Assembly: GCA_012840015.1 (NCBI GenBank)
Contig: DUMF01000017.1
Location: 16,376 to 80,375 of the forward strand
Length of the DNA: 64,000 nt
Direction: 5' to 3'
DNA from: Bacillota bacterium
GTDB taxonomy: Bacteria > Bacillota > Sulfobacillia > DUMF01
Below, in pieces: positions 35,051-64,000 of the stretch (within the stretch, counting starts at the first letter, position 1; the number at the start of each line of letters is the position of its first letter). The notes beneath the pieces were generated by a model. That model worked only from the letters and a program-made list of their open reading frames with translations. It was not told the origin of the DNA and did not search any database. A program made the translations under genes and the position numbers.

Positions 35051-35401
35051 ATGACAAGCACGATCTATCTATCAGACACAGAGGTAGACAAGATCATCGC
35101 CGATCTGGACCATTTCAACAGGCTATGTGCCAATGGTAGCAACAGCAACGCTGCCGACATTGCAAAGACTCAGGCAATCGCGGACAACTTGGCAATTTCG
35201 GGAGAACTTACAGGGTTCGAGCTTAAGGTTTACAGGGCTGCCGAGGAAATGAAAGCCCATACTGGCTACGCCTCACCCGGCGCAGTCGCCGAGATGATCG
35301 GTGCTACGTTTGAAGCCTGTCGAGACGCCATGATCAGCATAGCGACCAAGGTCACGGAGGTACAGCGTTTGCTGGAGAGGAGGGCTGCACATGCCAATTA
35401 A
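35051..35401 (+). CDS. Hypothetical phage protein
   Basis: ORF with an RBS-like GAAGGAGAGTG upstream. No family recognised. Confidence 0.3.
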   Translation: MTSTIYLSDTEVDKIIADLDHFNRLCANGSNSNAADIAKTQAIADNLAISGELTGFELKVYRAAEEMKAHTGYASPGAVAEMIGATFEACRDAMISIATKVTEVQRLLERRAAHAN

Positions 35402-41224: not shown

Positions 41225-41228
41225 CCGC

Positions 41229-42485
41229 GTGTTTACAGAAGTCAACGAAATTAAGTGTGTGATAATAAGGCCACCTAACCCTCCTGGGGTAATGACCAGG
41301 GACGAAGGATGGCACAGGCTTGCCCAGCTGTTTGACTGCATTTTCCTAGTTGACCCTGGTGAAGTTGATTTGTGGAGGAAGTACGGACGTTGTGCAATAC
41401 GACAGCATGTAATCCCGTATGTTCAAGGCAACCTCAAATCTATACTATCCTCTGAGGGCTTGCTTCCGTGCGAAACGGTGTATGTGACCTGGGACCCGAG
41501 TGAACTAAACGATGCAGTAAATGCGCGCGTAGGGACTGTGCTGGTCGGAGATGACTCGCTGGTTTGGGACGGGACTCGGCCGAGAGCATGGCCTGATCTG
41601 CTCGTGAGCGAGTTAGACGGTGTTATTAAGTGCTTAGATCTAGTGCGCCAAGGACGCTTGACAGGGTATGCAGGGGAAGTAGGCGGGACTACATGGAAGC
41701 GGTTCAAACGGGGAAGCGGATGGCTGGTAGCTGGTCCAGACTGCGGCAAGAGTTGTCAGATGCAGATACTCGCTTTGGGTCGGTATTTCCCAACGGGTGA
41801 TGCAAGAGCAGCAAAACACCAATATACCCAAAGATTACTGGAAATGAAGAACGGGTGCGAACGGGTTCTAGCTGAAGTTTTGGGTCGCGTACTTGAGAAA
41901 ATAAAAGAGAACATGCCGTTTCAACTTGTTACAGTAGTGCCTCCAAAGCCTAGTAAACACTACCCTTCCGGCCTTCAGGAAACGGTCGAACGAGCCTGCA
42001 ACGAAGCAGGTCTAGGGGGTCTATTCTGCGACACGGCTTTGATTTGTAAAGAAGACTATCCTTCGCAGAAATGTACATCTTGGAGTGCCCGAGAAGAAAA
42101 CGTAAAGGGCAAGTATGAAGCAAGACTTAAAGGTTCGGAGCGGCACGTAGTCGTTATCGATGACATCTATACCAGCGGGTCGACGATTCGGGAGTGCTGT
42201 AAGCAGCTTTTGCAAGCTGGTGCCGGAGAGGTAACGGGAATTGTATTTGGTGTTGACCAGTGCGTGATTAAGTCTACCGAGGAGAAAAGACTACCTTGTC
42301 GACGACCAGGTTGCAACGGAACATACAGATTCAGATGTAACAGGGCTGACCATACTGCGTTTTGGGGTTGTTCCAAATTCCAGAACGGTTGCAAGAGTAC
42401 ACTTGACTGGGAGGATGGACTGCAGGAGCTCAACAGGATGAATACTGTGCTTGGTAGTGCATACTTTGATGACATACCTTTTTGA
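41229..42485 (+). CDS. ComF-like phosphoribosyltransferase-domain protein with C-terminal topoisomerase-type zinc ribbon
   Basis: PRTase PRPP-loop HVVVIDDIYTSGSTIRE preceded by a ComF-like segment. The C-terminal CRRPGCNGT…CN…GCSKFQNGCKST is a zf-C4_Topoisom-like ribbon. It starts 5 nt after the dprA stop. Confidence 0.55.
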   Translation: MFTEVNEIKCVIIRPPNPPGVMTRDEGWHRLAQLFDCIFLVDPGEVDLWRKYGRCAIRQHVIPYVQGNLKSILSSEGLLPCETVYVTWDPSELNDAVNARVGTVLVGDDSLVWDGTRPRAWPDLLVSELDGVIKCLDLVRQGRLTGYAGEVGGTTWKRFKRGSGWLVAGPDCGKSCQMQILALGRYFPTGDARAAKHQYTQRLLEMKNGCERVLAEVLGRVLEKIKENMPFQLVTVVPPKPSKHYPSGLQETVERACNEAGLGGLFCDTALICKEDYPSQKCTSWSAREENVKGKYEARLKGSERHVVVIDDIYTSGSTIRECCKQLLQAGAGEVTGIVFGVDQCVIKSTEEKRLPCRRPGCNGTYRFRCNRADHTAFWGCSKFQNGCKSTLDWEDGLQELNRMNTVLGSAYFDDIPF

Positions 42486-43848: not shown

Positions 43849-44268
43849 ATGAGATCAGTAATCGAAGAGCGCGGGCTTGCGGAGTATGTTCTCTCTCTCA
43901 GGGGAGAGGGGCTAAGCTCGCGGGAAATAGCCAAGCGAATAGAGCAGGAGAAAGGGATACGGTTCGCACACACCACCGTAGCCAAGTTCTTGAAAGCCGT
44001 GCGAGAAGAGAGGCGCCAAATCACGCAGGATGTTGTCCAGCGCATGCTGACTCCGACCGTCCCTGCCGACCTTGAAGCGCTTGAACGGGCAAAGCAAATG
44101 CTCCTTGGGTGGCTAGACATGGACCTCAAGGTAAGGGAAAAACTCCAAGTCATAGACCGCCTAGCGAAAATCATCGAAACCCGGCTTAAGTTTGCTGGCG
44201 CAGAGCCCGAGGAGAACGTTACCGTGAAGCTCTATGACTTCGACGACAGCGCCTATCCGGAAGACTAG
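43849..44268 (+). CDS. terS: Terminase small subunit
   Basis: HTH …LSSREIAKRIEQEKGIRFAHTTVAKFLK…. Located immediately upstream of terL. ATG at 43849 has an AGGGGTG RBS. Confidence 0.55.
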   Translation: MRSVIEERGLAEYVLSLRGEGLSSREIAKRIEQEKGIRFAHTTVAKFLKAVREERRQITQDVVQRMLTPTVPADLEALERAKQMLLGWLDMDLKVREKLQVIDRLAKIIETRLKFAGAEPEENVTVKLYDFDDSAYPED

Positions 44269-45547
44269 CCCCTTTAAGTGCCTTCCTGGCCAGCGGCGGT
44301 TCATGGAGTCCACAGCTCCGGAGCTTCTGTATTCAGGGGCATGGGGTGCTGGCAAAAGCCGGGTGCTGTGCGAAAAGGCGCTGTACCTTGCCCTGAAGTA
44401 CCCGGGCAACTTCGTCGGCATCTGCCGGAAGACGTTCAACGCGCTAAAGCAGACTACAATGCGGACGTTTTTCCGGGAAGCGTGCCCACCAGACCATATC
44501 AAGTCGTGGAACAAGACTGACCATCTCCTCACGCTTAAGAACGGCTCACAGGTGTACTTTTTTGGTCTCGATGACCCGCTGAAGATACAGTCGTTGAACC
44601 TGGGTGCGTGTGGGGTCGACGAGGTCGTGGAGCTAACCGAAGAGGACTGGACTGTGCTCGGAGGCAGGATACGTTTGTCGTCGGTTCCGTTCAGGCAGCT
44701 GTTCGCGGCGACCAACCCGGCGAGTCCAAGCCACTGGCTTTATAAGAGGTTCTACATTGACCGCTCCACGCTTCCGGACGGTCGGCCACTGACCGAAGTG
44801 GTTGAGAGCAACTCGTTGGAGAACCCATACCTGCCACCAGACTATGTCGCAAGGATTCAGACGCTGACTGGGCGATACAGGGAACGGTTTGTCCTGGGGC
44901 GGTGGGTTGGCTTCGAGGGGCTGGTATACGACTGCTTTGATCCCCTGATCCACGTTGTCGATAAGATGCCCGAAGGATGGCAGAAGTGGCCTAAAGTGAG
45001 GAGCATCGATTTCGGGTATGCGAACCCGTTCGTGTGCCAGTGGTGGGCGATCTCACCGGACGACGAGTGGTATCTTTATCGCGAGATCTATTTCTGTCGA
45101 AGACTCGTGTCCGAACATGCAGCTCAAATCAAGGCGTTAAGTGCTGGCGAGACGTATCTGGCAACCTACGCGGACCACGATGCCGAAGACAGGGCCACGC
45201 TTGAAGCGTGCGGCATTCCTACGGTTCCGGCTGTGAAGGACGTTTCGCCTGGTATCCAGGAGGTGTACAGCCGGTTGCAGCCGGATGAAAGGGGCAAACC
45301 GAGGCTGTACTTCTTGAGGGGTGCGCTGGTGGAGCGCGATCCGGCTCTCGTTGAGGCCAAGAAGCCGACCTGCACCATCGATGAGATACAAGGCTATCAG
45401 TACCCGAAGCCGAGGGGCGAACGGAACCCCCAGGAAGAGCCGATCAAACTGAACGACCACGGGATGGACGCAATGCGCTACGCGATTTACTCGTTTGCGA
45501 GTTCGCGAAGAGCCAAAAGGACCCTCGACAAGGTGGTAGTCGTATGA
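44234..45547 (+). CDS. terL: Terminase large subunit (PBSX/terminase_6-like)
   Basis: Walker A SGAWGAGKS and a nuclease-domain acidic residue pattern. Length 437 aa. Confidence 0.85.
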   Translation: MTSTTAPIRKTSPFKCLPGQRRFMESTAPELLYSGAWGAGKSRVLCEKALYLALKYPGNFVGICRKTFNALKQTTMRTFFREACPPDHIKSWNKTDHLLTLKNGSQVYFFGLDDPLKIQSLNLGACGVDEVVELTEEDWTVLGGRIRLSSVPFRQLFAATNPASPSHWLYKRFYIDRSTLPDGRPLTEVVESNSLENPYLPPDYVARIQTLTGRYRERFVLGRWVGFEGLVYDCFDPLIHVVDKMPEGWQKWPKVRSIDFGYANPFVCQWWAISPDDEWYLYREIYFCRRLVSEHAAQIKALSAGETYLATYADHDAEDRATLEACGIPTVPAVKDVSPGIQEVYSRLQPDERGKPRLYFLRGALVERDPALVEAKKPTCTIDEIQGYQYPKPRGERNPQEEPIKLNDHGMDAMRYAIYSFASSRRAKRTLDKVVVV

Positions 45548-47001
45548 CCGACCAGAAACGAGTGTTGACCAAAGCGATAACGATACAGGCAGACCAGCGG
45601 ACATCGGCCGGGGGGTCAAAGCAACTCCCGGCGGATCCGTTTTCGAGGCTTTATTCGGAGTACGGTCTGGTGAGGCCTCCGTATCGCCTCGAGCAGTTGC
45701 TCGAACTCAAGGAGTCGAACCCGATCCACTGTGCCTGCATAGAGCAGAAGAGTTCGGATATTGCTGGCCTGGGTTGGCACTGGGTGCCGAGACAGGGTAT
45801 CGATAAGCCCAACGAAAAGCAGCGCGACGCTCTCGAGGAGTTCCTGGCTGGCTGCAACCCCGAGATGACGTTCCGGGAGATTTTGCAAGCAGTCTGGGAC
45901 GATGTAGAAACGCTCGGGTGGGGCATTGTCGAAGTGGTCCGCAATGCTAAAGGCCTGCCGGCTGAACTGTACCACGTGCCGGGCCACACGGTCCGGGCCC
46001 ACCGTGACGGCGTCCGGCTCTGCCAGATACGGGAGAACAAGATGCGGTGGTTCAAGCGCTTCGGTGCGGAGGGTGAGTACGATCTTGAAACCGGTGAACC
46101 GAGAAACGGGCTGCCCGAGGAAAGGCAGGCCGGCGAGCTCATAGTCATCCGCAAGCCCGGTTCCCGGTCCAGCTACTACGGGATACCGACGTACATCAGT
46201 GCGCTGGGCGCCATCGTGGGCAGCCTGGCAGCCAGGGATTTCAACATTACCTGGTTCCGCGAGAAGACGGTCCCGGATATGGCGCTGATTATCGAAGGGG
46301 CCGATGTATCCGAGAAACTGGCGAACGAGCTCCGGACCTTTTTCAACATTGAGGCACGAGGGCAGCATCATAAACTGCTAATTTTGCCCATCCCTTCGGA
46401 TGCCGGTGCAGAAGTCAGAGCCAGGTTTGAGAAGCTGACTTCCGAGCTCAAAGATGCTTCGTTCCGGCTCTACCGGCACGACAACGCGGTTGAGATCCTG
46501 GTGGCTCACCGCGTTCCGCCTTACAGAATCGGTTGGGCAATCGTCGGTTCGCTGGGCGGTTCTACGGCGAAAGAGATGACTGAGATCTACAAGCGCTCAG
46601 TCATCCAGCCTGGTCAGGAGATTCTCGAGCACAGGCTTAACAATCAACTATTCAAGGCCTTCGAGCCCGGCCTTGGTGAGCTGCAGTGGCGCTGGAAGCT
46701 GGACGAGATAGACCTCTCCGACCAGATGCAGGACCTCGAGTACTCCATCAAGGGCGTGCAGTACGGCATATTTACGCCCAACGAGGCGCGTCAGCATCTA
46801 GGCAAGCAGCCTTATCCGGGCGGAGATGTGTACTACATGCCGCAAGCGCTAATACCGGCCGGCCAGGCTGAAGTGTCCAAGGCCGACGAAGATCCGCGGG
46901 ATAAAGAGTGGGACGACTGGGTTCGGGTACATCATCGCTATGAAAAAGACCTGCGCGACAAGGTGGTCGATTTTTTCGCTCCCAGGCGGAGCGCGTGCTG
47001 A
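45544..47001 (+). CDS. Portal protein
   Basis: 485 aa in the position after terL. Typical portal length with ATGA-type coupling. Confidence 0.75.
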   Translation: MTDQKRVLTKAITIQADQRTSAGGSKQLPADPFSRLYSEYGLVRPPYRLEQLLELKESNPIHCACIEQKSSDIAGLGWHWVPRQGIDKPNEKQRDALEEFLAGCNPEMTFREILQAVWDDVETLGWGIVEVVRNAKGLPAELYHVPGHTVRAHRDGVRLCQIRENKMRWFKRFGAEGEYDLETGEPRNGLPEERQAGELIVIRKPGSRSSYYGIPTYISALGAIVGSLAARDFNITWFREKTVPDMALIIEGADVSEKLANELRTFFNIEARGQHHKLLILPIPSDAGAEVRARFEKLTSELKDASFRLYRHDNAVEILVAHRVPPYRIGWAIVGSLGGSTAKEMTEIYKRSVIQPGQEILEHRLNNQLFKAFEPGLGELQWRWKLDEIDLSDQMQDLEYSIKGVQYGIFTPNEARQHLGKQPYPGGDVYYMPQALIPAGQAEVSKADEDPRDKEWDDWVRVHHRYEKDLRDKVVDFFAPRRSAC

Positions 47002-48017
47002 GAGCGCTTCCGCCGGCAGAGAAGATAGAAAAGGCCTGGTTCGACGGGCTGATTGACCCCGTCGAGGAGCAGAAGAAATTCCTCGAAGCCATACTGCCGG
47101 AACTGCAGAAGATCTTTGCCAAGTTCGCCGAAAAGGCCGCGAAGCAGCATCGAGTCAGTTTCGATCCGTCGGAACCCGCGGCTCTGGAGTGGATCAACGA
47201 GCATGCTTTCGAATTAGTCGAACAAGTCACGGACACCACGGTGGAGCAGCTTCGTGCGACGCTGGAGGAAGGATGGAAGGCGGGTGAGGGCGTAGAGGGC
47301 CTGGCAGAGAGAATCAGGCAGGTCTTCGACCAGGCTACGCGTTACAGGTCCTTTGTGATAGCCCGGACCGAGACTACCGCAGCTGCCAACATGGCACAGA
47401 TAGCCGTGATGGAGCGGGCAGGGGTGCAGTACAAGCAGTGGCTTACGGGCAGGGACGAACGCGTTTGTCCTCTCTGCGGTAGCCTGGACGGCAAAGTAGT
47501 GCGGATAGACGAGGAGTTTGCCCCGGGGATATTCAGCCCACCGGCACATCCGAACTGCAGGTGCACGGTTCTGAGTGCGAGCACAGTTCATAAGCACTTG
47601 CCAGGTCGACATGACCAAAAAAGCCACGGTAGACGAGGTCACGGGCGGCCCACAGTGATTGCGTCTATCGAAAGCGGGGATCTGCGACAGCTTGGATTGT
47701 CTGCAACAAGCACTAAAGTAGTTTTGCGCTCACAAATAAGAGCAAAGATTCTAAGAGATCACCCAGATGATGCTGGATACTTGGATAGAATCAGCGAGGT
47801 TATCGAGGCTTGGGAATATCAAGGGAAGTCTCCAAAACATCCAAGGAGACTCGAGCGATACAAGCAGTTAGACGGTATCTGGTTTACGGCAGTGGTCCAA
47901 TTAGCCGGAGAAACATCTGATTACGTTGACAACTTCGTAGTGACATTCCACAGGCTCGACGAACGAAAGGTACGTAGCCGATACAACAAAGGGAGGATAG
48001 TACCAAGAAGCCATTGA
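46995..48017 (+). CDS. Minor head protein (MuF / SPP1 gp7-like) with ~140-aa C-terminal extension
   Basis: MuF-like core ending …CPLCGSLDGKVV…HPNCRCTV, then an additional basic C-terminal region. Confidence 0.65.
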   Translation: MLRALPPAEKIEKAWFDGLIDPVEEQKKFLEAILPELQKIFAKFAEKAAKQHRVSFDPSEPAALEWINEHAFELVEQVTDTTVEQLRATLEEGWKAGEGVEGLAERIRQVFDQATRYRSFVIARTETTAAANMAQIAVMERAGVQYKQWLTGRDERVCPLCGSLDGKVVRIDEEFAPGIFSPPAHPNCRCTVLSASTVHKHLPGRHDQKSHGRRGHGRPTVIASIESGDLRQLGLSATSTKVVLRSQIRAKILRDHPDDAGYLDRISEVIEAWEYQGKSPKHPRRLERYKQLDGIWFTAVVQLAGETSDYVDNFVVTFHRLDERKVRSRYNKGRIVPRSH

Positions 48018-53949: not shown

Positions 53950-54543
53950 TTGCAGATGCCAGCCATTAGAACCGGTATTTCGGCGACCACGCCTCAGAAC
54001 TACTTGATTGGGCCAGGGGCAGTCTACAAGGACTTTACGGATCTCGCAACCCTGGGAACGACCGCTAAGTTACTTGGCGCCACCGCGGGCGGCAATCAAG
54101 TAACCGTTACTCCAGAATGGTTCGACCCGAGGCCTGATGGCGCTCCCGGTCCCATCAAAGGCATGAGGCGGCTCATCGGGGTCACAGTGACGGCCAAGGT
54201 CAACCTGCTTGAGATGACGAAGGAAAACCTCATGCTTGCGCTGGGCAAGGCGACGTCTGAGCCTTATCCGGCCACGACCCCGACTCATGACAAGATCAGA
54301 CCTTCTCTCGGGACGCTCGCATCGACTGACTACTTCAACATTGCTATCGTTGGCGACCTTGGCGGCGACACTGACCCGGTCGTGTTTGTCTTAGAGAATG
54401 TCTGCGTCACTGACGCCGTTGAAATCAATATGGGTACCGGCAAGGAGGACATAGTGCTGGCCGTCACCTTTACGGCACACTATGACCCGGCCAATCTAGA
54501 ACAAGTGCCAGCTTACATCCTAAGACCGCAAACTACGCCGTAA
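53950..54543 (+). CDS. Major tail protein
   Basis: 197 aa, immediately upstream of the chaperone G/GT pair. Confidence 0.6.
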   Translation: MQMPAIRTGISATTPQNYLIGPGAVYKDFTDLATLGTTAKLLGATAGGNQVTVTPEWFDPRPDGAPGPIKGMRRLIGVTVTAKVNLLEMTKENLMLALGKATSEPYPATTPTHDKIRPSLGTLASTDYFNIAIVGDLGGDTDPVVFVLENVCVTDAVEINMGTGKEDIVLAVTFTAHYDPANLEQVPAYILRPQTTP

Positions 54544-54556
54544 TGGGGGCTAAACC

Positions 54557-54961
54557 ATGAGCAGGGATAAGAACGATGAAGCTATCATCCTGGAAACTGG
54601 TCAGGAAGTGGAAATCGCAGACCGCAAGTACACGATGAGGCGGCTTACGACGCGGGATGTGTTTGCGTTCTCGAAACTGGTAACCAAGGCTTTGAAAAGC
54701 ACTGGCAACCAGGAGGTTGCCAACCCAGACGCTCTGGGTTTCGTTCTGATGGCAGGTATGGCTGAGAACGACCACGAGGTAGCAGCGTTCTACGGGTCGT
54801 TAATAGGGTTATCTGCTGACGAGTTCTTGGCTCTTCCAGCTGAAGCTTTCAGCGACTTCTTCGACGCTCTGTCTAGGAGCTACGATTTGCAGGCTTTTTT
54901 CGAAGCAGTAACCAAAGCCGTGAGGGCCCTGGGCTCTCTCTGGCAGACGCCCTCGACATAG
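54557..54961 (+). CDS. Tail assembly chaperone (G)
   Basis: 134 aa, followed by an overlapping -1 frame ORF (T). Confidence 0.55.
   Translation: MSRDKNDEAIILETGQEVEIADRKYTMRRLTTRDVFAFSKLVTKALKSTGNQEVANPDALGFVLMAGMAENDHEVAAFYGSLIGLSADEFLALPAEAFSDFFDALSRSYDLQAFFEAVTKAVRALGSLWQTPST
54895..54901 (+). promoter_or_regulatory. Programmed -1 ribosomal frameshift slippery heptamer T_TTT_TTC (chaperone G→GT)
   Basis: XXXYYYZ heptamer in the G frame (…GCT TTT TTC…). The -1 frame is open from here through 55254. Confidence 0.45.
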
Positions 54962-55254
54962 TGGAAGCGAGGTACGGGTGGACGGACGAAGAGGTGCTGT
55001 CTCTTCCGTTCGCCCGCTTCCTGCAGGTGGTGGAACAGGCATCGAAGGCGCAGAGAGAAGAAATGAGGCGCCTGGCGTTTCTCGGCTGGCAGGTCCAGGC
55101 GCCGCTGAGGGAGCGTCAGATAAGCTTCGCCGAGTACCTGGACGCCCTGGGGCTGGGAAACGAACGGCCCGCTCCGGTTAGGGTTACCAAAGAGCAGGCA
55201 GAGAAGAGGGCGGATGAGATTCTGGCGATGTTCGAAGCGACAAATCAGCCATAA
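54961..55254 (+). CDS. Tail assembly chaperone frameshift extension (T part of G-T)
   Basis: Lies in the -1 frame relative to G and is contiguous with the slippery site. Confidence 0.45.
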   Translation: MEARYGWTDEEVLSLPFARFLQVVEQASKAQREEMRRLAFLGWQVQAPLRERQISFAEYLDALGLGNERPAPVRVTKEQAEKRADEILAMFEATNQP

Positions 55255-55661
55255 ATCTCTTGCACTAAAGTATTAAACTGTTTGTCGTTGCATTCAAAAA
55301 TGAGTGAATAACTGAGCTGGCCCTGAATTACCGGGATAGATACCGTGTTTGCCTGTTTGCCTCTGGCTCCAAGTGCACCGCCAATAATCAGTCCAGCTGG
55401 GCCAGCAAGAGCACCCCCGATCAAGGCACCTGCAGCTGCCTTTGTCGTGGATCTTCTTTCTTGGCGGGTGTAATCGAGTGGGCCGAAAGACTCGCGTCCG
55501 ATTATAACGGTGTTGCCCCAGCCGGCCAGTATCTCGACTTTGTCTCCTTTTCTTTGAACGGTGACATCGCGTGGGCCCCTAAGACTCGGATGCCCTCCGA
55601 TGTAACGAACCTTGACCAACCCGATCCCCTCCTTTTCGATGAATTCTGTTTCAACATCCAT
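55245..55661 (-). CDS. Reverse-strand glycine-zipper membrane protein between chaperone and tape-measure genes (candidate moron)
   Basis: Internal ATG with an AAAGGA RBS; TTG at 55727 is an alternative start. Gly-zipper segment AAAGALIGGALAGPAGLIIGGALGARG. Confidence 0.45.
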   Translation of the reverse strand: MDVETEFIEKEGIGLVKVRYIGGHPSLRGPRDVTVQRKGDKVEILAGWGNTVIIGRESFGPLDYTRQERRSTTKAAAGALIGGALAGPAGLIIGGALGARGKQANTVSIPVIQGQLSYSLIFECNDKQFNTLVQEIYG

Positions 55662-55733
55662 GTCAGGAATCCTTTTGAGGTGATTCAAGTGGAGCTGTTC
55701 AGGCTCTTCGGAGTTGTCGACCTTCAAGGTAAC

Positions 55734-58700
55734 ATGGCCTTGATGCAGTTGCGCGAGATCGATCAGCAGGCCCGCAAGGCTGGCAGCACTCTTGGCGGTC
55801 TAGTGAAGCAGGCTGCCAGCTTCGCAGCGGGTATAGGGCTGTGGCAGGGCTTCACAGCAACTGCGCGGGCTCTGGGTAACACGTTTATCGGTCTGAATAC
55901 ACAGTTTCAGCAGGCGGGGATGGCTCTGGAGACGATGCTGGGGTCTTCCGAGAAAGCGAGGTCTCTCCTGAGCGATCTTGAGGCCTTCGCGGCTCGTACT
56001 CCGTTCGAGTTTCCAGAGCTCATGGACGCGACGCAACGAATGATGGCACTGGGCTTTTCTGCTGAGGAGGTGATCCCGACACTACAGGCCGTAGGTGACG
56101 CTGCCGCCGCAATGCACAAGGGTAAGGAGGGTATTGACAGAATCATCTTGGCATTGGGGCAAATGCGTGCCAAGGGCAAGGTCACCGGCGAAGAGATGCG
56201 ACAACTGACGGAGGCCGGCATCCCGGCGTGGGACCTGCTGGCTCGTGCCATCGGTAAGTCCGTGCCGGAGGTCCAGAAGCTCGCGGAGAAGGGGCTCATC
56301 CCTGCTGACAAGGCGGTGCAGGTGCTCGTGCAGGGGATGGAAGACAAGTTCGCTGGGATGATGGATAAATTCGCCGACATGTTCCCCGGTGTTGTCTCTA
56401 CCATTAGAGACAACGTGAAGATGCTGTTCAAAGACCTAACTTCGGGGCCTTTCGCTGACATGACGGAGTGGCTAAAGGGCATAAGAGACTGGACGAGCAG
56501 GATACGGGAAGCGTACGTCGGGGCAACCAAGGCTGCTTCAGGAATAGCGGGCGTGGAGGCCGAGTCGAGACGCAAAGCCGGGCTTGCCGCGGTATACGAC
56601 CTGCTGGTGCCAAAGGGAAGCAAGTTGCGCGAGGAACTGGACCCGGTACTTACCGCACTCAATGATTTCTGGAAGAGCGTCACTTCTGCGGCAAGTAAAT
56701 TCGTACCGGTGATCCGCGATGCGTGGGAATCGATCAGACCCGTTGCGCTGACGATAGCTCGGGCGATCGCGGAAGCTGGAAGCAAGGCGGCTCAGCTTGC
56801 AGGAGTCATCGCAGACAACTGGTCGAAGATAAAACCAGTGATTCTTGGGGTCGCGACAAGCTTCGCGGTTCTGAAGACCTCCATGGCGTTAGAGAAGGCA
56901 GCAAAGGGTATACCCGAGCTGATATCAAGCATAGTCGAGAAAGGCCGGTATCAGGCCAAATTGTTTGATATGGCCATTAGAGACAGCAGCGGTGTGTTGG
57001 GCAAGTTTAAGGCTGCGATTCAGGCTTTGACTGGCGTTAATCCTGTATTCCTCGCGATCGGGGCTGCGGTTACTGCTGTTGCAGTATTGGCCTTCGAGTT
57101 GTACCGAAACTGGAAGGACGTGCCCCCATTCTTCCGCGCTCTCTGGGAGACGATTAAGGCCACGTTTGCACTTGGCTGGAGCGGGATTGCGGTTGTGCTC
57201 CGCGAGATGCAGCTGGGCGTGGCAAAGGTGCTCAATGCCACACTCGGTAACGTGCTTCGCTTTGCTGCAAAAGTAGCGGAGGTTTTCGGTAAGATACCTG
57301 GCGCCAGAGAGTTTGTGGGCGGCATACAGGCAGCACTCGAAGGAGGCGCCGAGTGGTTTGCTGGGTTTGAGGAGTCTTCTGCGAAAGCCTTAGACGAAGC
57401 GAAGGGCGATATCTTGGAAGCCTCACGCAACCTGGGGCAGCGGTGGGAGGAGCTGAAGGCCACGGGCTCCGTGCTGGGCAAGGCAATAGGGTCTGACCTG
57501 GCAGCGATATTCACAGCGGCGAAGGCCAAGGCTAAGGAGGCTTTCGGCGCGATCATCCCCGGGCTCCAGAGTGTCGGTGACAAAGCCACCGAGGCTGGTA
57601 GAAAGGCCGAGACGGGGCTGGGCGACGGCTTCGGACTTGGCGCAGAAGAGGCAAGGCAAGCAGTAGACAAAGCGGTGTCCGCGATCGAGAAGCTCATCTC
57701 GGAAGCCGGCAACACGCTCGGAGAAGGTACTGACAAGGCGGCGGTCAGACTGCAGAACGCGTTAGCGTCGGCGATGGCTGCAGTGAAAGCCCTGGGCGGC
57801 GCCGCCGGACAGGAGCTCGCGGACGACCTGAGCGGGGCAGCAGCGCTAGTTGAAGCGGCAGTCAAGGGGAGATCTGAGGAGGCTGCCGTTGCGCTCCTGG
57901 AGAAGCTCGGCAGGGCTTCAGCAAAAGTCGCATCCCTGATCAAGGATGATTCCGGCGAGGCCGCGCAGTCTTTGAAGAACGCCTTGTCGGAAGCCGCGCA
58001 GGAGGTCCAGGACAGGTTCAAGCAGCTGACCGAGGAGGCTAAGAAGCAACAGATTGAGTCGATCGACAGGCTAAACGATGCCCTCGTCTCTGCGCTGAGG
58101 AAGCGGTACGAGAAGGAAAAAGAACAGCGCACGAGGGCGGTCAGGGATGCCATTGATGCCGAGAAAGAGCGCGTGGATGCAATCATTGCCGAGATCGACC
58201 GCGAGAGGTGGGCCAGGGAAGAAGCCACGAACGACGCGCTGAGGCTCCAGATCCGGTCCATCTGGGCCGAGATCGACGCGATAGAGGAGCTGACACGCAA
58301 AGAGGAAGAAGAAGCGAAGCAAGCCGAGCAAAGAGCTAGGATCCTGGAGCTGCAGGCGAAGATCGCCGAGGAGACTGACCCTGTCGAACGCCAGAAGCTG
58401 CAGATGGAGCTTGCAAAAGAGCTTGCTGAGCAAGAAAGGCAACAGATACTTGCGCAGCGCGAAGAGCGAAAGAAGCAGCTCCAGAAGCAGCTCGAAGACA
58501 TCCGGTACCAGCAGGAGCAGTCCCTGAAGGCGTTCCAGGCGACCAAGCAAAAGGAACTGGATTACCTCGAGAATGAGTACTATCCGCGCCTGTTGCAGGA
58601 CGCAGCGCTCCAGGCCGAAGCAGAGAAGATGATCCTCGCCGGCAAGCATGCCGAGATACTGGAGCTATTGCAGCAATATGGCGAGGGCTGGAAGGACCTC

Positions 58701-59345
58701 GGCAAGACCTTCGGTGAGCGTCTGATCGAAGGCATAGGGCCATACATCGATGAGCTGAACAAGATGGTCTCTTCGGCCCTCACAGCGGCTTCAGGAGCTA
58801 GGACCACTCCAGCTTCTGGGAGCGGTGGAGGCTATGCTGAACAGATAAGCAGAATCTCAGCCTCCGACTTAGCCAAACTCCGGGAAAACAGTCGGCAGTG
58901 GTGGGAGGTCCAAAACAATCCCAACCTCTCGCCCGAGCAGAAGAAGGCAATACAGGACGCCCTGCACGCCGAGAACGCCGCGATCCAGGGCAAATACGGC
59001 ATCCCGGCGGAGGCAAGTGAGACCGAGATTAACTGGTCAAGAATGCACTCGGGCGGAATCGTCAAGTCGAACCCCCTGGCGGAGTTTCTGAGAAACGCAC
59101 TCCTGTTGAAGCCTCAGGAAGTGCCGGTCATATTGCAGGAGGGCGAGATCGTCCTGCCGCGCTCGTTCAGGCTGCCAAATCTTGCGAGCCTGGGTTCGGT
59201 CTCGGTCGCGCCTGCATTTGCGGGTGCGCCTACAATCAACGTGACGATATCAGACTGCACCTTCCAGGACGGCACCGATGCCGGTCGTCAGATAGGCACG
59301 GCCATTGTCTCCGAGCTGCGAAGACGAGGAGTGATGCGGTATTGA
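55734..59345 (+). CDS. Tail tape measure protein
   Basis: About 1203 aa, Ala/Glu/Lys-rich coiled coil (…EKEQRTRAVRDAIDAEKERVDAIIAEIDRER…). Canonical position after G/GT. Confidence 0.85.
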   Translation: MALMQLREIDQQARKAGSTLGGLVKQAASFAAGIGLWQGFTATARALGNTFIGLNTQFQQAGMALETMLGSSEKARSLLSDLEAFAARTPFEFPELMDATQRMMALGFSAEEVIPTLQAVGDAAAAMHKGKEGIDRIILALGQMRAKGKVTGEEMRQLTEAGIPAWDLLARAIGKSVPEVQKLAEKGLIPADKAVQVLVQGMEDKFAGMMDKFADMFPGVVSTIRDNVKMLFKDLTSGPFADMTEWLKGIRDWTSRIREAYVGATKAASGIAGVEAESRRKAGLAAVYDLLVPKGSKLREELDPVLTALNDFWKSVTSAASKFVPVIRDAWESIRPVALTIARAIAEAGSKAAQLAGVIADNWSKIKPVILGVATSFAVLKTSMALEKAAKGIPELISSIVEKGRYQAKLFDMAIRDSSGVLGKFKAAIQALTGVNPVFLAIGAAVTAVAVLAFELYRNWKDVPPFFRALWETIKATFALGWSGIAVVLREMQLGVAKVLNATLGNVLRFAAKVAEVFGKIPGAREFVGGIQAALEGGAEWFAGFEESSAKALDEAKGDILEASRNLGQRWEELKATGSVLGKAIGSDLAAIFTAAKAKAKEAFGAIIPGLQSVGDKATEAGRKAETGLGDGFGLGAEEARQAVDKAVSAIEKLISEAGNTLGEGTDKAAVRLQNALASAMAAVKALGGAAGQELADDLSGAAALVEAAVKGRSEEAAVALLEKLGRASAKVASLIKDDSGEAAQSLKNALSEAAQEVQDRFKQLTEEAKKQQIESIDRLNDALVSALRKRYEKEKEQRTRAVRDAIDAEKERVDAIIAEIDRERWAREEATNDALRLQIRSIWAEIDAIEELTRKEEEEAKQAEQRARILELQAKIAEETDPVERQKLQMELAKELAEQERQQILAQREERKKQLQKQLEDIRYQQEQSLKAFQATKQKELDYLENEYYPRLLQDAALQAEAEKMILAGKHAEILELLQQYGEGWKDLGKTFGERLIEGIGPYIDELNKMVSSALTAASGARTTPASGSGGGYAEQISRISASDLAKLRENSRQWWEVQNNPNLSPEQKKAIQDALHAENAAIQGKYGIPAEASETEINWSRMHSGGIVKSNPLAEFLRNALLLKPQEVPVILQEGEIVLPRSFRLPNLASLGSVSVAPAFAGAPTINVTISDCTFQDGTDAGRQIGTAIVSELRRRGVMRY

Positions 59346-59477: not shown

Positions 59478-59945
59478 ATGGCAATATTCGACCTGCTAAG
59501 AAGGCTGAGAAGTAAGTCGGGAGTCCGTGGGCAGTGTCTGGTTGAACTCTTCGACGAGCACGGTAGGCTTAAGGAGCGCAGGCTCGTTAAGAACCTTATT
59601 GTGAACAACGGCAAGTACGCGATTACAGAACAACTGCTTGACTCGCCTAGTATCGCCAAACCGAGTCACATGGGAATAGGCACGGGGACAACTGCTCCTG
59701 CGGCTACAGATACGGCGCTTGGTACTGAGGTCGGGACCCGGGTGTCTGTGACCAAGTCCCGGTCGAACAACGTACTTACGTTGAGCGCAACGTTTGGTGC
59801 TGGTAACGGCACAGGGGCCATAACAGAGGCGGGGATATTCAATGCGGCGACTGCAGGGACGATGTACAGCAGGATCACGTTTGCAGCTATAAATAAAGGT
59901 TCAAATGATTCGCTCACTTTGACATGGACTTGGACTATTGGATGA
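59478..59945 (+). CDS. Hypothetical Gly/Thr/Ala-rich tail-tip-region protein (155 aa)
   Basis: β-rich low-complexity sequence (…TLTWTWTIG). Located immediately after the tape measure gene. Confidence 0.4.
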   Translation: MAIFDLLRRLRSKSGVRGQCLVELFDEHGRLKERRLVKNLIVNNGKYAITEQLLDSPSIAKPSHMGIGTGTTAPAATDTALGTEVGTRVSVTKSRSNNVLTLSATFGAGNGTGAITEAGIFNAATAGTMYSRITFAAINKGSNDSLTLTWTWTIG

Positions 59946-59962: not shown

Positions 59963-62900
59963 TTGGCTAGGTTTGGCACAGGGCAATTTGGCAGCGCAAA
60001 ATTCGGAGTAGAGGAGCTTTCTGAGACCCAACTTAGCCTGCTCGAAACGCTGCAGAAGTCTTTTGCTCGTAGCCTGGCTGATTCGATCAGCCTTTCTGAT
60101 GTGCTGCTGACTGCTCTCAAGAAGGTTGTTAGTGAGTTGCTGGCTCTGGCGGAGTCAAGCGTTCGCGACATTGGGCCATCGGTTGCGGATTCTTTTGGGC
60201 TGTCCGACACCGCTTGGCAGGGGTTCTCAACGAATTTGGTCGATGCGTTGACGCTTTCTGAATCTGTGGCCCGTCTGGCTGCAGCGGTCCGAGCCGATTC
60301 AGTCACGTTGAGCGACCTTCTTTCGGCCTCAGCCATGAAGGTTTTGAGCGACGCCCTGAGCCTGGCCGATGCTTGTGCGACAGGAGCAACACTGAGCAAG
60401 GAAGACGTTCTGACTCTGGCAGACGGATTCAGCGTAGCAGTCGCCAAGGCGTTAGCCGACACCCTCGCGCTTGCGGAGGCGATCTCCGCGGTGACTGGGG
60501 CTTCTAGAGCTGAGTCGCTGGTCCTAGCGGATGCGTTGGCGTTAAACGTAGCCAAGGTTCTTGGCGATGATCCGGTGACCCTGGCTGACGTGTGGTTTAG
60601 GCTATTCACGACACGGGTAGAGAGTAACTTGGCTCAAGGCAAGCCGTATACGAAGAGCAAAGCGCCTTCGCCGTCGTATCCCGATACCAACCACTCTGAA
60701 TTCACCGACGGGAATGAAGGAGACAATTGGACCAGCGCTTTTGGTTATACTGCAGCGATTTTGGGCATTCCGGACGGCGCTGTAGGTTCGGTCGAAATTG
60801 TCGTAGACCTGGGATCGCCTGCAACGGTTAGCCGCGTTCGAGTGAAGACTGGCGGAGGCTCGCTGAGTTACAGAGCCGACCAACTGGACGTAGAGGTTAG
60901 CCAGGACGGTGTGGCTTTCATCCCCGTTGGAAGTACGACGCAGTTAATCGATACCTGGTATCACGAAGTAGGCTTCGAGCCAGTTATATGCCAGTTTGTT
61001 AAATTCCGTGTCGCAAAAGACTTTGCTCCAGCGGGCCAGCCTGGCGACTGGCTGTTCATAGGAGAGGGCTGGGTTTACGGTGAATGGGCAATTGATACAA
61101 TTGACAACGTAGCAGTGGCAACAACCAAGTCAGCCTCTGACCTCGTGGAGCTGACAGATACTCTTATCAAATCAGCTTCGACGTCGCTTTCCGAAATGCT
61201 CGCTCTCGTCGAAGCCATGGCAACCACAATCCAAAAAGTTGTTGATGAAAGCGCGAATGGGACCGATTCCCTGCAGGCAAGCACGAGCAAGGTTCTGGCT
61301 GACGTTGCTTCTCTGGCCGACGTAATTCGCACTGTGATAGACGCCTATCCCGGACGATCCGCATTGTTCGGTCTCGCAAGGTTCGGCTACGAGTATTTCG
61401 GCAACCAGCAACCTGGAGAAGCAGTAAGTCTCCGGGATGCGATAGCCAGCGAGATCGGATTTGGTGTGCTAGCAGAGGATCTGGAGGTACTGGCTGATGC
61501 GATAAGGTCCGCTGTGGAGAGGCTGGCTGCAGAGAATCCCGCGCTGCTGGATGCCATTGCGTCGGGCCTGGTGGCGCAGAGGCCGGATGAAACCGCTCTG
61601 GCGAGCGATGCCGTCGCGCTTCAGGTTGCCCGAGCAGTTGAATCGCTGCTGGCTGTCTCAGATGCCCTGTTAAGCATGGCCAGTGAGAAGGGTATTACCG
61701 ACACAGTAGCACCGGTGGTGGATTCTCTGACGAGTAAAGCGACGAAGGTTGTTGAACTGGCGCTCGCGTTGGGCGATCAGGCCGCAGCGCAAGTTGCTAA
61801 GTCTCTAAGTGGCGAGGCAGTAGCTCTGGCTGACGCGATAGCGCAAACTGCGGGTGTACAACTTGAGGACATTGCGCTCGACCTGGGCTCCGTGTTGCAG
61901 TCTGCTGATATGTCTGCAGCAATCGGCGGAGCTAGGTTTGGACGGTCCGCGTTCGGCTCAGTTTCGTTCGGCGACAAAGGGACCCGTGCCGCTACGACTG
62001 ACGACTTGGCAAAGGCAATAAGCACCGTTCTGGGCGATGTCATAAGTCATTTGGATGCTCTTGCACTCCAGGCTATCAAAACTGCTGCTTTGTCAATGAC
62101 GTTGACAGAGGCAGTAGCGCTTGTCGCGCAGAAGGTAGCTGCGGATTCGGCAAGCGTTGTGGACCTGAACACGTTTGCAGTGGCAAAGAGCCTTGGGCTC
62201 TCAGTGGCCGTGGCCGACGATGTTGCCAAAGCCGTTGCGATCGCGCTACAGGGTCTGAGTGTAACTACAGCGGACCAGGTTCAGGCTGCCCTTGCAATGC
62301 TCCGTCAAGCCCAGGACGAAATGGCGATAGTGGACGGTGTAGTCCGAGCGATTAATCTGCTCAGGGACGAACTTGTAGCCGTGGCTGACGAAGCCCGGAA
62401 AGACATCGATGCCAAGCGGGCTGAAACCCTGGCAATAGCGTCGGCACTGGGGAAAGATGTGGCTCACTTCCCACCTGGCGATGTGACAGGTTTACTCGAC
62501 GAGGTTGAATTGCTGGGTGCTCTCCTGGCTGGCGACCTCATGGCTCCCCTCATGGATGCCGTTACTGGCGAGGTGTACGAAGTGTTGAGTCAAGTCTTCA
62601 TAAACGGAATATCTGTGCTGACCAGGGGACTGACCATCAAAGAGAGCGTCGCTTCCCGTGTCGGCGAGTGTTCGTTCGTGATTCCCGATCCGACGCCGCA
62701 GGTTCTTTCCCTCTGCCAGCAGGGTGCAGATGTGCACGTCTACCTCAGCGATTCCGGCGAGAACATCGTCTGGGGCGGCAGGATTGTGTCGGCCAGCGTC
62801 GTATCGGTCAGTTCGCTGGTCCGCGAGATTCGAGTTACAGCCCAGGACTATGCTACACGGGCACAGTCGGTCCTGGTTTCCGGGGCCTGGGTGCAGACAA

Positions 62901-64000
62901 AGTACACGGACACAGTGAAGGCCCTTTGGCAGCAGTACGCACCGGAAGACAACCTGGTCCTTGAAGTAACCGACAACCCTAAAGTCGCCGAAAAGTGGGT
63001 CGTGAAGTGGGAAAGTCTTGCCGAAGCCACCGACAAGATTGCCCAGGTCCTCGGCTGGACCTGGCGCGTGGACTGGGACGGTGGCAAGAAGATATTCCGG
63101 TTCTTCGATCCCGGTGCTGAGGTACATCCGCGGGTCCTCTCTGTAGCGAACCTCAACATCGAGTCCGGCACCGCAGAGTTTGGCCAGGACGAGGAGATAG
63201 TAAACAGCGTCTACGTCCTGGGCGGTCAGACACTATACACACCCGACCCATATCGCAAAGTGGCCGATGGGCAGGAGACGTACTTCATCCTGCCGGCCAG
63301 GCCCTTCGAGCCCATCGCCATCAAGGTGGACGGCGTAGAGAAAACTTGGACCTACGAGGTTCCGTACTGGCCTGAAGGTAAAGACTGCATGGTCAACCCG
63401 GAAGGCAGATACGTGCGGTTCCGTACGGCTCCGGCGAGTGGGGCTGTAGTCGAGGTTACCTATCAGGCCATGCGTCCGGTCCGCGTTCACCTCGAAGAGC
63501 CTGGCAGCATTGCGCTGTACGGTAGGCACGACCGGGTTGTGAACGACTCCAAGATCGCGGACCCATTGCAGGCACGCGAGACGGCACGGAAGATCCTGCG
63601 CGAAAAGGCCTGGCCGAAACAGCACGGCACGATGAATGTCTACGAGCCTGGGCTTCGGGCGGGTAAGATCGTGCACGTGTACCTGCCCGACAGAGGAATC
63701 GATGGGTTGTATCAAATTGCAGAGATGACGTGGGCCGTTGACCGAGCCGTGATAAAGCGCAGCATATCACTCAACAGGGTAGCAGATGCCGGGGCAAGCA
63801 TCGCGCAGGTCATCAAGGCACTGGCGGAGCGTGTGGCTGCACTGGAAGCGGGAGCGGACAGCGAGAATGCAACTGTCGATCGCTTCATTGATCAGTCACA
63901 GCGCGTGAAGATTGCCGTGAACGCTGACTGGGCAGGTAGCATTGTTGCAGCTCCTGGAGCTGATCAATACTCAGCGTTTGACCTTGCGACCCGTGTCCTG
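59963..64000 (+). CDS. Post-tape-measure ORF open to the window end (>1,340 aa, 3' partial). Ala-rich helical regions and a discoidin-like segment.
   Basis: Hand translation shows a stop in this frame at 59960-62 and an open frame from 59963 (TTG) to the end of the window. The ORF track lists no + strand ORFs here. The translation includes …DGNEGDNWTSAFGY…VKFRVAKDF… and a region from …FINGISVLTRGLTIKESV…. Confidence 0.55.
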   Translation, partial: MARFGTGQFGSAKFGVEELSETQLSLLETLQKSFARSLADSISLSDVLLTALKKVVSELLALAESSVRDIGPSVADSFGLSDTAWQGFSTNLVDALTLSESVARLAAAVRADSVTLSDLLSASAMKVLSDALSLADACATGATLSKEDVLTLADGFSVAVAKALADTLALAEAISAVTGASRAESLVLADALALNVAKVLGDDPVTLADVWFRLFTTRVESNLAQGKPYTKSKAPSPSYPDTNHSEFTDGNEGDNWTSAFGYTAAILGIPDGAVGSVEIVVDLGSPATVSRVRVKTGGGSLSYRADQLDVEVSQDGVAFIPVGSTTQLIDTWYHEVGFEPVICQFVKFRVAKDFAPAGQPGDWLFIGEGWVYGEWAIDTIDNVAVATTKSASDLVELTDTLIKSASTSLSEMLALVEAMATTIQKVVDESANGTDSLQASTSKVLADVASLADVIRTVIDAYPGRSALFGLARFGYEYFGNQQPGEAVSLRDAIASEIGFGVLAEDLEVLADAIRSAVERLAAENPALLDAIASGLVAQRPDETALASDAVALQVARAVESLLAVSDALLSMASEKGITDTVAPVVDSLTSKATKVVELALALGDQAAAQVAKSLSGEAVALADAIAQTAGVQLEDIALDLGSVLQSADMSAAIGGARFGRSAFGSVSFGDKGTRAATTDDLAKAISTVLGDVISHLDALALQAIKTAALSMTLTEAVALVAQKVAADSASVVDLNTFAVAKSLGLSVAVADDVAKAVAIALQGLSVTTADQVQAALAMLRQAQDEMAIVDGVVRAINLLRDELVAVADEARKDIDAKRAETLAIASALGKDVAHFPPGDVTGLLDEVELLGALLAGDLMAPLMDAVTGEVYEVLSQVFINGISVLTRGLTIKESVASRVGECSFVIPDPTPQVLSLCQQGADVHVYLSDSGENIVWGGRIVSASVVSVSSLVREIRVTAQDYATRAQSVLVSGAWVQTKYTDTVKALWQQYAPEDNLVLEVTDNPKVAEKWVVKWESLAEATDKIAQVLGWTWRVDWDGGKKIFRFFDPGAEVHPRVLSVANLNIESGTAEFGQDEEIVNSVYVLGGQTLYTPDPYRKVADGQETYFILPARPFEPIAIKVDGVEKTWTYEVPYWPEGKDCMVNPEGRYVRFRTAPASGAVVEVTYQAMRPVRVHLEEPGSIALYGRHDRVVNDSKIADPLQARETARKILREKAWPKQHGTMNVYEPGLRAGKIVHVYLPDRGIDGLYQIAEMTWAVDRAVIKRSISLNRVADAGASIAQVIKALAERVAALEAGADSENATVDRFIDQSQRVKIAVNADWAGSIVAAPGADQYSAFDLATRVL

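What the first reader, a model, noticed from the sequence alone, without database searches (positions are those of the whole stretch)
55245..55734. Reverse-strand glycine-zipper gene inserted between tail chaperone G/GT and the tape measure gene
What the sequence shows: in siphophages the tape measure gene normally follows G/GT directly. Here a 480-nt interval carries an ORF on the opposite strand with an RBS-supported ATG. The product has a soluble ~80-aa N-domain and a glycine-zipper transmembrane-like segment (AAAGALIGGALAGPAGLIIGGALGARG).

Inference: opposite orientation inside a late operon is the hallmark of a lysogeny-expressed moron. Gly-zipper membrane proteins in such slots are often superinfection-exclusion or abortive-infection factors.
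Basis: partly seen in the sequence, partly recalled or inferred. Interest (0 to 1): 0.6.

Follow-up and report, generated by a model that had tools for sequence, protein, structure and literature searches.

The report
Reverse-strand PH/glycine-zipper moron before tape measure
A real, horizontally acquired accessory gene sits backwards between the tail-chaperone and tape-measure genes of an integrated prophage; it encodes a small membrane-hugging protein of an uncharacterised family (Pfam PH_gly_zipper) that probably excludes other phages, though that function is untested.

Summary
A minus-strand ORF fills the 479-nt gap between the G/GT chaperone (in-phase slippery T_TTT_TTC at 54895) and the tape measure gene (ATG 55734). 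It is a conserved gene of Pfam PF27000 PH_gly_zipper, with 117 representative homologues, and is under purifying selection.

The moron reading is supported:
- GC3 is 0.48, against 0.61-0.75 for the structural genes.
- Two cultured phages with a homologous T domain have GT abutting TMP directly.
- In a sister prophage the flanks are 91-95% identical but this gene only 59%.

No promoter or terminator was found in the window; two of four relatives searched have a promoter-like site, one also a terminator-like hairpin.

The family recurs at the GT-TMP junction in about five distant siphophage lineages, in both orientations. It also occurs in lysogeny modules. HK97 gp15 occupies the same slot. A superinfection-exclusion or defence function is plausible but unproven.

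The parts
55245..55619 (-). PH_gly_zipper gene, preferred CDS (TTG start, 124 aa, stop TGA 55247-55245). Alternative starts: ATG 55661 (138 aa, as called in NCBI/ENA) and TTG 55727 (160 aa).
   Evidence: ORF list. Identical protein P0001 carries precomputed PF27000. Homologue N-termini align to residue 15. L004 has the same GGAGG-N8-start geometry.
55628..55632 (-). GGAGG Shine-Dalgarno, 8 nt upstream of TTG 55619
   Evidence: Read directly from the sequence.
55464..55619 (-). N-terminal half of the PH-like domain (strands 1-5; conserved Y-x-G-G-H-P loop)
55365..55439 (-). Double glycine-zipper hairpin (residues 75-99 in ATG numbering; GxxxG / G-P turn / GxxxGxxxG), flanked by RRSTTK and RGK
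   Evidence: Most conserved part of the family: 66% mean column majority, against 32-34% for the PH parts. Hydropathy 1.78. Low AF2 confidence.
55248..55349 (-). C-terminal part of the PH-like domain (two strands plus the capping helix)
   Evidence: AF2 E105-113, E116-124, H126-137, pLDDT >90.
55245..55254 (.). 10-nt convergent overlap between the 3' end of this gene and the 3' end of the GT T-frame
   Evidence: L036 shows the same tight arrangement, a 4-nt overlap.
54557..54961 (+). Tail assembly chaperone G
   Evidence: phrog_1021. 74% and 60% identical to the G proteins of L004 and L003.
54895..54901 (+). -1 frameshift slippery heptamer T_TTT_TTC, in phase with G
   Evidence: The T-frame peptide is conserved in L004 and L003.
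54898..55254 (+). T portion of the GT fusion (-1 frame)
   Evidence: phrog_9591, E 1e-11. 40% identical to the 'pre-tape measure frameshift protein' of Bacillus phage Flasso.
55734..59345 (+). Tape measure protein (1203 aa), divergent from the reverse gene
   Evidence: PF20155 TMP_3, E 1e-35. phrog_12798, E 4e-56.

Best explanation
The interval holds a horizontally acquired accessory gene (a moron) of an integrated siphovirus prophage, transcribed against the late operon.

Product (shown or predicted). It is a ~124-aa member of Pfam PF27000 PH_gly_zipper. A PH-like beta-sandwich stays in the cytoplasm. A 25-residue double glycine-zipper helical hairpin is inserted between strands 5 and 6 and bracketed by Arg/Lys. 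The hairpin most likely dips into the cytoplasmic leaflet of the cell membrane as a re-entrant anchor. The anchor and the adjacent basic/YxGGHP loop are conserved. The rest of the PH surface evolves quickly.

Proposed action (inferred). The protein is made from the prophage, or early in infection. It sits at the inner face of the membrane and interferes with incoming siphophages at the step where the tape measure protein opens the DNA conduit. That would be superinfection exclusion, functionally analogous to HK97 gp15, which occupies the same slot.

Consequences of the arrangement (inferred). Late-operon read-through produces antisense RNA across the gene, which would switch it off during the phage's own lytic growth. 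Linkage to the TMP gene keeps the exclusion factor and its cognate TMP type together.
For: Real gene and family.

Cytoplasmic placement follows from three family architectures:
- Zn-ribbon + 2 TM + domain (P0038).
- Signal/TM + TM + domain (P0134, P0130).
- Domain + TM + C-terminal domain (P0031).
Both halves of the fold must also lie on one side of the membrane.

Moron status:
- GC3 0.48 against 0.61-0.75.
- GT abuts TMP in Flasso and JGon-2020a.
- 59% amino-acid identity against 91-95% in the flanks of L004, with dS saturated.

Prophage status: integrase, cI-like repressor and PIN gene.

Family contexts typical of lysogeny or defence cargo:
- Repressor-ImmA-PHGZ-integrase (L006).
- cI/Cro-PHGZ-serine recombinase (L025).
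- Next to an integrase (L016, L046, L072).
- Next to a KAP NTPase (L048), or to a ResIII helicase plus methylase (L044).

Recurrence at the GT-TMP junction in distant lineages whose TMPs are only 23-31% identical: window/L004/L003, L005 and L036 on the reverse strand; L020/21/23 and L049 on the forward strand.

Own promoter-like sites in L003 and L036, plus a terminator-like hairpin in L036.

Precedents: the HK97 gp15 inner-membrane Sie lies between the tail chaperone and TMP genes (PMC3594210). phi80 taiEcA is a defence gene lying divergently inside a late operon (PMC11364771).
Against: - No expression data exist. No promoter- or terminator-like site was found for the gene in this window, in L004 or in L005.
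- There is no hit to any PADLOC defence model, and no homology to gp15/YebO or to any characterised Sie protein.
- In four phage contigs the family gene is co-directional and tightly packed within the tail operon, which suggests late co-expression with tail genes.
- Some members are chromosomal with no phage context (L010, L011).
- The zipper is modelled with low confidence, so membrane insertion is a prediction.
- Enrichment at the TMP junction is modest once related contigs are collapsed: about 3 independent lineages among 47 IMG/VR contigs.
Confidence: 0.4

Rival explanations
1. Abortive-infection or toxin-like effector. PH domains oligomerise, helped in relatives by coiled-coil or SHOCT extensions. 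The glycine zippers then assemble into a membrane-permeabilising pore when a phage cue is sensed, killing or arresting the cell.
For: - Glycine-zipper hairpins are a recognised pore and packing motif; the zipper is the most conserved part of the family.
- Relatives carry coiled-coil N-extensions and SHOCT tails, which suggest multimers.
- L048 has a KAP NTPase as neighbour, and L044 a ResIII helicase plus methylase.
Against: - Each zipper arm is only ~12 residues, about half a bilayer.
- No partner sensor or antitoxin gene is conserved next to it.
- There are no PADLOC hits.
- The gene is single and stand-alone in most contexts.
Confidence: 0.2
2. A function in the phage's own lytic cycle, tied to the tape measure protein. 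It might manage TMP or the membrane of the producing cell during tail assembly. It might block re-injection into already infected cells late in infection. It might aid genome delivery.
For: - The gene recurs directly upstream of the TMP gene in distant lineages.
- This includes co-directional, tightly packed copies between the chaperone/T genes and the TMP (L020, L021, L023, L049).
- The position is retained while the sequence is replaced.
Against: - In five lineages the gene is antisense to the late operon, which should suppress it during late transcription.
- Cultured phages with a homologous GT lack it entirely.
- Many family members sit in lysogeny or early modules, or on chromosomes far from any TMP.
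Confidence: 0.15
3. A general membrane or stress protein carried as neutral cargo. The GT-TMP junction is simply one of the few permissive insertion points in a tail operon, so nothing links the gene specifically to phage-phage conflict.
For: - Chromosomal copies lack any phage context (L010 in Paenibacillus, L011).
- The unrelated HK97 gp15 uses the same slot.
- The enrichment statistics are modest.
Against: - 47 distinct IMG/VR viral contigs carry the family.
- The gene is maintained under purifying selection at the same site while being swapped for divergent alleles.
- It is repeatedly placed beside integrases and repressors.
Confidence: 0.15
4. Spurious antisense ORF or non-coding spacer.
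For: No promoter or terminator was predicted in this window.
Against: - 117 homologues cover the full length.
- pN/pS is well below 1.
- AF2 predicts the fold confidently.
- A strong RBS is present.
- Two pipelines called the gene independently.
- There is no Rfam match.
Confidence: 0.02

Closest known systems
HK97 gp15 moron (YebO-like inner-membrane superinfection-exclusion protein; Cumby et al. 2012, reviewed in PMC3594210)
   Same: A small membrane-associated protein. It is encoded by an insertion in the tail operon exactly between the tail-assembly-chaperone genes and the tape measure gene of a temperate siphophage. Related phages lack it. Its exclusion activity depends on the incoming phage's tail region.
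   Different: There is no sequence or fold relationship: no YebO or other hit at E<=1. gp15 is a short bitopic YebO-like protein, not a PH domain with a re-entrant zipper. The gene here is on the opposite strand and shows no recognisable promoter or terminator. Its function is untested.
Pfam PF27000 PH_gly_zipper (family of unknown function)
   Same: The identical protein is annotated with this family in the precomputed tables. It shares the YxGGHP loop, the RSxGKAAAGA...GGRxKDxS zipper, and the C-terminal strands and helix with 40 aligned members.
   Different: None in architecture; this is a minimal, domain-only member. The tail-operon context and the TMP linkage found here were not mentioned in any paper I could find.
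phi80 taiEcA 'noncontiguous operon' arrangement (PMC11364771)
   Same: A prophage defence gene placed in divergent orientation so that it interrupts a late operon. Late transcription therefore opposes it.
   Different: The protein is unrelated and the position differs (upstream of the packaging module, not in the tail genes). Tai acts on tail assembly, not at the membrane.
Glycine-zipper two-helix membrane hairpins (SlyB/Rick_17kDa_Anti, Gly-zipper_YMGG/Omp, C19orf12)
   Same: Tandem GxxxG arms joined by a tight turn, predicted to form a short membrane-embedded hairpin attached to a beta-rich soluble domain (my own knowledge of SlyB). A weak C19orf12 match, E 5e-4 and below the curated cut-off, covers the zipper only.
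   Different: There is no lipobox or signal peptide, so the protein approaches the membrane from the cytoplasm. The zipper is an insertion inside a PH fold. None of these Pfam families matched above threshold.

Membership tests
Pfam PF27000 PH_gly_zipper | Match to the family HMM | tested here: met
   The precomputed annotation for the identical 138-aa protein P0001 is PF27000. The model is absent from the local Pfam copy, so I could not re-score it.
Pfam PF27000 PH_gly_zipper | PH-like beta-sandwich with a capping C-terminal helix | tested here: met
Pfam PF27000 PH_gly_zipper | Glycine-zipper segment inserted within the domain | tested here: met
   G78xxxG82, a G87-P turn, then G90xxxG94xxxG98. 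These glycines are invariant or >=90% conserved across 40 members.
Phage moron (Juhala/Hendrix sense) | Inserted between two genes that are adjacent in related phages | tested here: met
   In Bacillus phage Flasso the gap from GT to the next (TMP-sized) CDS is 50 nt. In Parageobacillus phage JGon-2020a the TMP ORF overlaps the T end. These are distant relatives, with T only 37-40% identical.
Phage moron (Juhala/Hendrix sense) | Nucleotide composition differs from the neighbours | tested here: met
   GC3 is 0.48, against 0.61-0.75 for the structural genes measured. GC is 0.515, against 0.53-0.61.
Phage moron (Juhala/Hendrix sense) | Own promoter and terminator | tested here: inconclusive
   None found in the window, L004 or L005. 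Promoter-like sites are correctly placed in L003 (TTTACA-18-TAGTAT with TG) and L036 (TTGATG-18-TACAAT), and L036 has a 9-bp terminator-like hairpin after the stop.
Phage moron (Juhala/Hendrix sense) | Expressed from the repressed prophage | not testable with these tools
   Needs strand-specific RNA-seq of a lysogen. The host is an uncultured Bacillota MAG from a biogas fermenter.
HK97 gp15 / YebO-type superinfection exclusion | Sequence homology to gp15/YebO | tested here: not met
   hmmscan against Pfam at E<=1 returned only weak zipper-only hits (C19orf12, Tim17).
HK97 gp15 / YebO-type superinfection exclusion | Location between the tail chaperone and tape measure genes | tested here: met
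   The HK97 position is quoted from PMC3594210.
HK97 gp15 / YebO-type superinfection exclusion | Inner-membrane protein that blocks DNA entry of phages with the cognate tail | not testable with these tools
   Only hydropathy and the architectures of relatives point to membrane association.
Known anti-phage defence systems (PADLOC-DB 2.0) | Match to any defence-protein model | tested here: not met
   0 families at E<=10.
Holin / lysis protein | At least one full-length TM helix, and a location in a lysis cassette with an endolysin | tested here: not met
   The only hydrophobic stretch is a 25-residue G/A-rich hairpin with a central G-P. It is flanked on both sides by halves of one fold. The neighbours are GT and TMP.
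Bacterial PH (bPH) Pfam families | HMM match to bPH_1-6 | tested here: not met
   No bPH hit at E<=1. The similarity is at fold level only. SHOCT fusions occur in some family members.

The most novel reading that the evidence does not exclude
PH_gly_zipper proteins are a widespread, so far uncharacterised class of phage-encoded injection blockers. In this reading, a conserved re-entrant glycine-zipper anchor holds a rapidly diversifying PH domain at the inner face of the membrane. There it recognises and jams the tape-measure-protein conduit of incoming siphophages. The gene is kept genetically linked to the TMP gene, often antisense, so that late transcription silences it. Cognate exclusion and TMP types would then travel and swap together as a cassette.
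Probability: 0.2. Interest if true: 0.7.

Novelty: new member of a known kind. Interest (0 to 1): 0.4.

Why it matters
If the exclusion hypothesis is right, this family would be a second, structurally unrelated example of the HK97 gp15 principle: a membrane protein that targets tape-measure-mediated DNA entry. It spans Bacillota and at least one Betaproteobacteria-assigned MAG. It comes with a clear conserved-anchor/variable-surface architecture that makes specificity mapping straightforward.

No family member was detectable by tblastn in 50,697 deposited phage genomes. It has therefore escaped experimental attention, although 47 IMG/VR contigs carry it.

If the hypothesis is wrong, this remains an ordinary hypothetical accessory gene in a prophage tail operon.

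Tried and rejected
- tblastn against 50,697 phage records with five family members (the window protein, P0011, the L036 protein, P0134 and P0119): no match. The low-complexity filter probably masks the zipper.
- PADLOC: nothing. NCBIfam: nothing meaningful.
- Literature searches for the family name and for glycine zipper + PH domain + phage: nothing. A broader search gave nothing on this family.
- Single-sequence AF2: unusable, pLDDT 39.
- afdb50 Foldseek: not available.
- BFVD Foldseek: one weak unnamed hit only.
- PDB profile search: only chance zipper-like matches to prion protein and YaxA.
- Rfam on 54500-56500: nothing credible.
- Search for close relatives lacking the insert via the G protein: viral and metagenome scans gave nothing new. 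I therefore had to rely on distant cultured relatives found through the T domain.
- The search for related loci with the broad alignments A1 and A3 failed for lack of conserved stretches.
- Rejected, spurious ORF: conservation, purifying selection and the predicted fold argue against it.
- Rejected, single-pass TM protein: it would split one PH fold across the membrane.
- Rejected, holin: there is no full TM helix and no lysis neighbours.
- Hand inspection of 55620-55760 on the minus strand found only weak promoter candidates (TTGAAT-17-TGACAT, CTGACA-16-ATTCAT). I do not count these as evidence.
Full report
**1. What is there**

The window from about 29.2 kb onward is an integrated siphovirus prophage. 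Its identified genes are:
- tyrosine integrase, 29206-30378 (-)
- PIN-domain gene, 30500-30949 (-)
- cI-like repressor, 32198-32716 (-)
- Gp3-like RDF, 35391-36431
- DprA-like gene, 40241-41224
- large terminase, 44234-45547
- portal, 45544-47001
- MuF, 46995-48017
- tape measure protein, 55734-59345 (PF20155, E 1e-35)

A very large plus-strand ORF opens at 59963 and runs off the window end.

Upstream of the finding lie the chaperone G (54557-54961) and a -1 frame T extension ending at 55254. An in-phase canonical slippery heptamer T_TTT_TTC lies at 54895-54901. The T-frame peptide is conserved in two related loci. 'G/GT' is therefore correct.

The 479 nt between the T stop and the TMP ATG are filled by one minus-strand ORF. 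Its 3' end overlaps the T stop by 10 nt. It is the only reverse gene found between the terminase and the window end.

**2. It is a gene**

- The identical 138-aa product was called in an NCBI MAG ('Firmicutes bacterium', 113-kb contig) and in two biogas-fermenter assemblies. It carries the precomputed Pfam label PF27000 PH_gly_zipper.
- phmmer against 1.84 billion representatives gave 117 hits at E<1e-3, most of them full length.
- A 40-sequence alignment shows a Y-x-G-G-H-P loop, an RSxGKAAAGAIxGGxLxGxxGxxAGAAxGGRxKDxS block, and a C-terminal strand-strand-helix.
- Against the sister prophage L004, pN is 0.28 and pS 0.75.
- No Rfam family matches.

*Start codon.* Homologues begin at residue 15-18 of the ATG-initiated form. 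TTG 55619 is preceded by GGAGG with an 8-nt spacer. L004 has the same GGAGG-N8-GTG geometry, and its frame closes just upstream. I therefore prefer a 124-aa product. The ATG (AAGGA, 8 nt) remains possible.

**3. Structure and topology**

The insert has two ~12-residue GxxxG arms joined by G-P. Its hydropathy is 1.78 over 19 residues, and it is bracketed by RRSTTK and RGK. Both halves of the fold must be on one side of the membrane, so a re-entrant hairpin is the simplest reading (inference).

Longer relatives fix the side:
- P0038 is Zn-ribbon, two TM helices, then the domain.
- P0134 and P0130 are signal/TM, TM, then the domain.
- P0031 is the domain, a TM helix, then a C-terminal domain.

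All three place the PH_gly_zipper module in the cytoplasm. Other relatives add coiled-coil N-extensions or SHOCT tails, which suggests oligomers. Across the family the zipper is far more conserved than the PH strands: 66% mean column majority against 32-34%.

**4. Moron status**

- GC3 is 0.48, against 0.61-0.75 for the eight structural genes measured. The PIN gene is the only other outlier.
- L004, a Kamchatka Bacillota MAG, is a sister prophage. Its TMP is 91% identical, its tail tube protein 95% and its G 74%. The reverse gene is only 59% identical.
- DNA identity to L004 falls to 54-66% between 55170 and 55757, against 85-99% on either side. Synonymous sites are saturated. This looks like replacement by a divergent allele at a fixed site, not local acceleration alone.
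- Two cultured phages with a homologous T domain, Bacillus phage Flasso and Parageobacillus phage JGon-2020a, have GT directly followed by the TMP ORF.

*Against.* No sigma-70-like promoter or intrinsic terminator was found for the gene in the window, in L004 or in L005. L003 and L036 do have correctly placed promoter-like sites. L036 also has a 9-bp terminator-like hairpin just after the stop.

**5. Context across the family**

Reverse-strand copies wedged between the T stop and the TMP start occur in:
- the window
- L004
- L003 (IMG/VR; TMP 40-46% identical)
- L005 (a MAG assigned to Uliginosibacterium; TMP ~31-44% identical in the N-terminal domain only, and a different tail tube family)
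- L036 (TMP 23% identical)

.

Co-directional copies in the same slot occur in L020, L021 and L023 (coiled-coil-extended proteins) and in L049. In L051 and L044 the gene lies about 1.2 kb upstream of a PhageMin_Tail-type TMP.

Among the 47 distinct IMG/VR contigs retrieved with two other subfamilies, five have the gene immediately upstream of the TMP. That is roughly three independent lineages. Position alone would predict about one, so the excess is suggestive but modest.

Other members sit in lysogeny modules or elsewhere:
- repressor-ImmA-gene-integrase in a Neobacillus prophage
- cI/Cro-gene-serine recombinase
- next to integrases
- in the early regions of gut phages
- beside a KAP NTPase, or beside a ResIII helicase plus methylase
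- occasionally on chromosomes with no phage context

**6. Mechanism**

*Shown or predicted.* The product is a conserved, cytoplasm-facing PH-like protein with a conserved hydrophobic glycine-zipper insert. It is encoded by a compositionally foreign, swappable cassette in a prophage.

*Inferred.* It anchors monotopically in the inner leaflet. It acts on incoming phages at the membrane step governed by the tape measure protein.

Two precedents make the arrangement plausible:
- HK97 gp15 is an inner-membrane Sie protein. [quoted passage not shown]
- phi80 taiEcA is a defence gene set divergently inside a late operon (PMC11364771).

Antisense read-through by the late operon would silence the gene during the phage's own lytic growth (inference).

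*Rivals.* These are an Abi-type pore, a TMP-related role in the phage's own cycle (favoured by the co-directional copies), and neutral cargo at a permissive site. I put the exclusion model at about 0.4.

**7. Comparison and novelty**

By annotation, fold and motif, the gene is a member of an existing but functionally blank Pfam family. By position and composition it is another tail-operon moron of the HK97 gp15 kind, though unrelated in sequence and fold.

It has no PADLOC hit and no detectable relative in 50,697 deposited phage genomes by tblastn. I found no literature on it.

The recurrent linkage of this family to the 5' flank of TMP genes is, as far as I could find, undescribed. It is the most interesting lead.

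**Verdict.** This is a real but fairly ordinary accessory gene.

Noticed in passing
window 59963-64000 (+): A single open frame of more than 1346 codons starts just after a 155-aa Gp80-fibre-like ORF (59478-59945) and runs off the window end. Its first ~900 residues are Ala/Leu/Ser/Asp-rich and look repetitive (..LSD.L.LA..). No recognisable Dit/Tal follows the TMP. The ORF lister does not show it because it runs off the end; the many A/S/T-rich minus-strand ORFs there are its shadows.
   Followed up: partly
window 30500-31730 (-): A PIN-domain gene (30500-30949; GC3 0.44, the other compositional outlier) overlaps by 11 nt a 263-aa ORF with no Pfam hit (30939-31730). The pair lies between the integrase and the cI-like repressor. 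It could be a toxin-antitoxin or defence cargo in the lysogeny module.
   Followed up: no
window 46995-48017 (+): The MuF-like head protein carries a weak C-terminal PBECR3 (Barnase/EndoU/colicin-like nuclease) match, E 2e-4 and below the cut-off. This is the MuF polymorphic-toxin type of architecture.
   Followed up: no
window 40241-42485 (+): The prophage carries a DprA-like gene (DNA_processg_A, E 5e-62). It is followed by a 418-aa ORF with only a faint phosphoribosyltransferase match.
   Followed up: no
window 55958-56357 and 58758-58839 vs L004: Within the otherwise 93-99% identical TMP genes of the window and L004 there are mosaic patches of ~70% identity. There is also a 30-nt indel region, which points to recombination inside the tape measure gene as well.
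   Followed up: partly
L005 (DYIB01000046.1, MAG assigned to Uliginosibacterium) 7995-8363: The same reverse-strand PH_gly_zipper-between-T-and-TMP arrangement appears in a high-GC contig binned to a betaproteobacterium. Only ~35 nt separate the divergent start codons, so any promoter must lie inside the TMP coding sequence. The taxonomic assignment of the bin was not checked.
   Followed up: partly
L048 5408-6805 and L044 198-4936: In two IMG/VR contigs the family gene lies directly beside defence-like genes. In L048 the neighbour is a KAP-family P-loop NTPase. In L044 it is a ResIII helicase/TnsA-like protein plus a DNA methylase.
   Followed up: no
window 28062-28961 (+): A sigma-70 family gene (regions 2 and 4) lies just outside the integrase end of the prophage. 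The attachment site and prophage boundary were not mapped.
   Followed up: no
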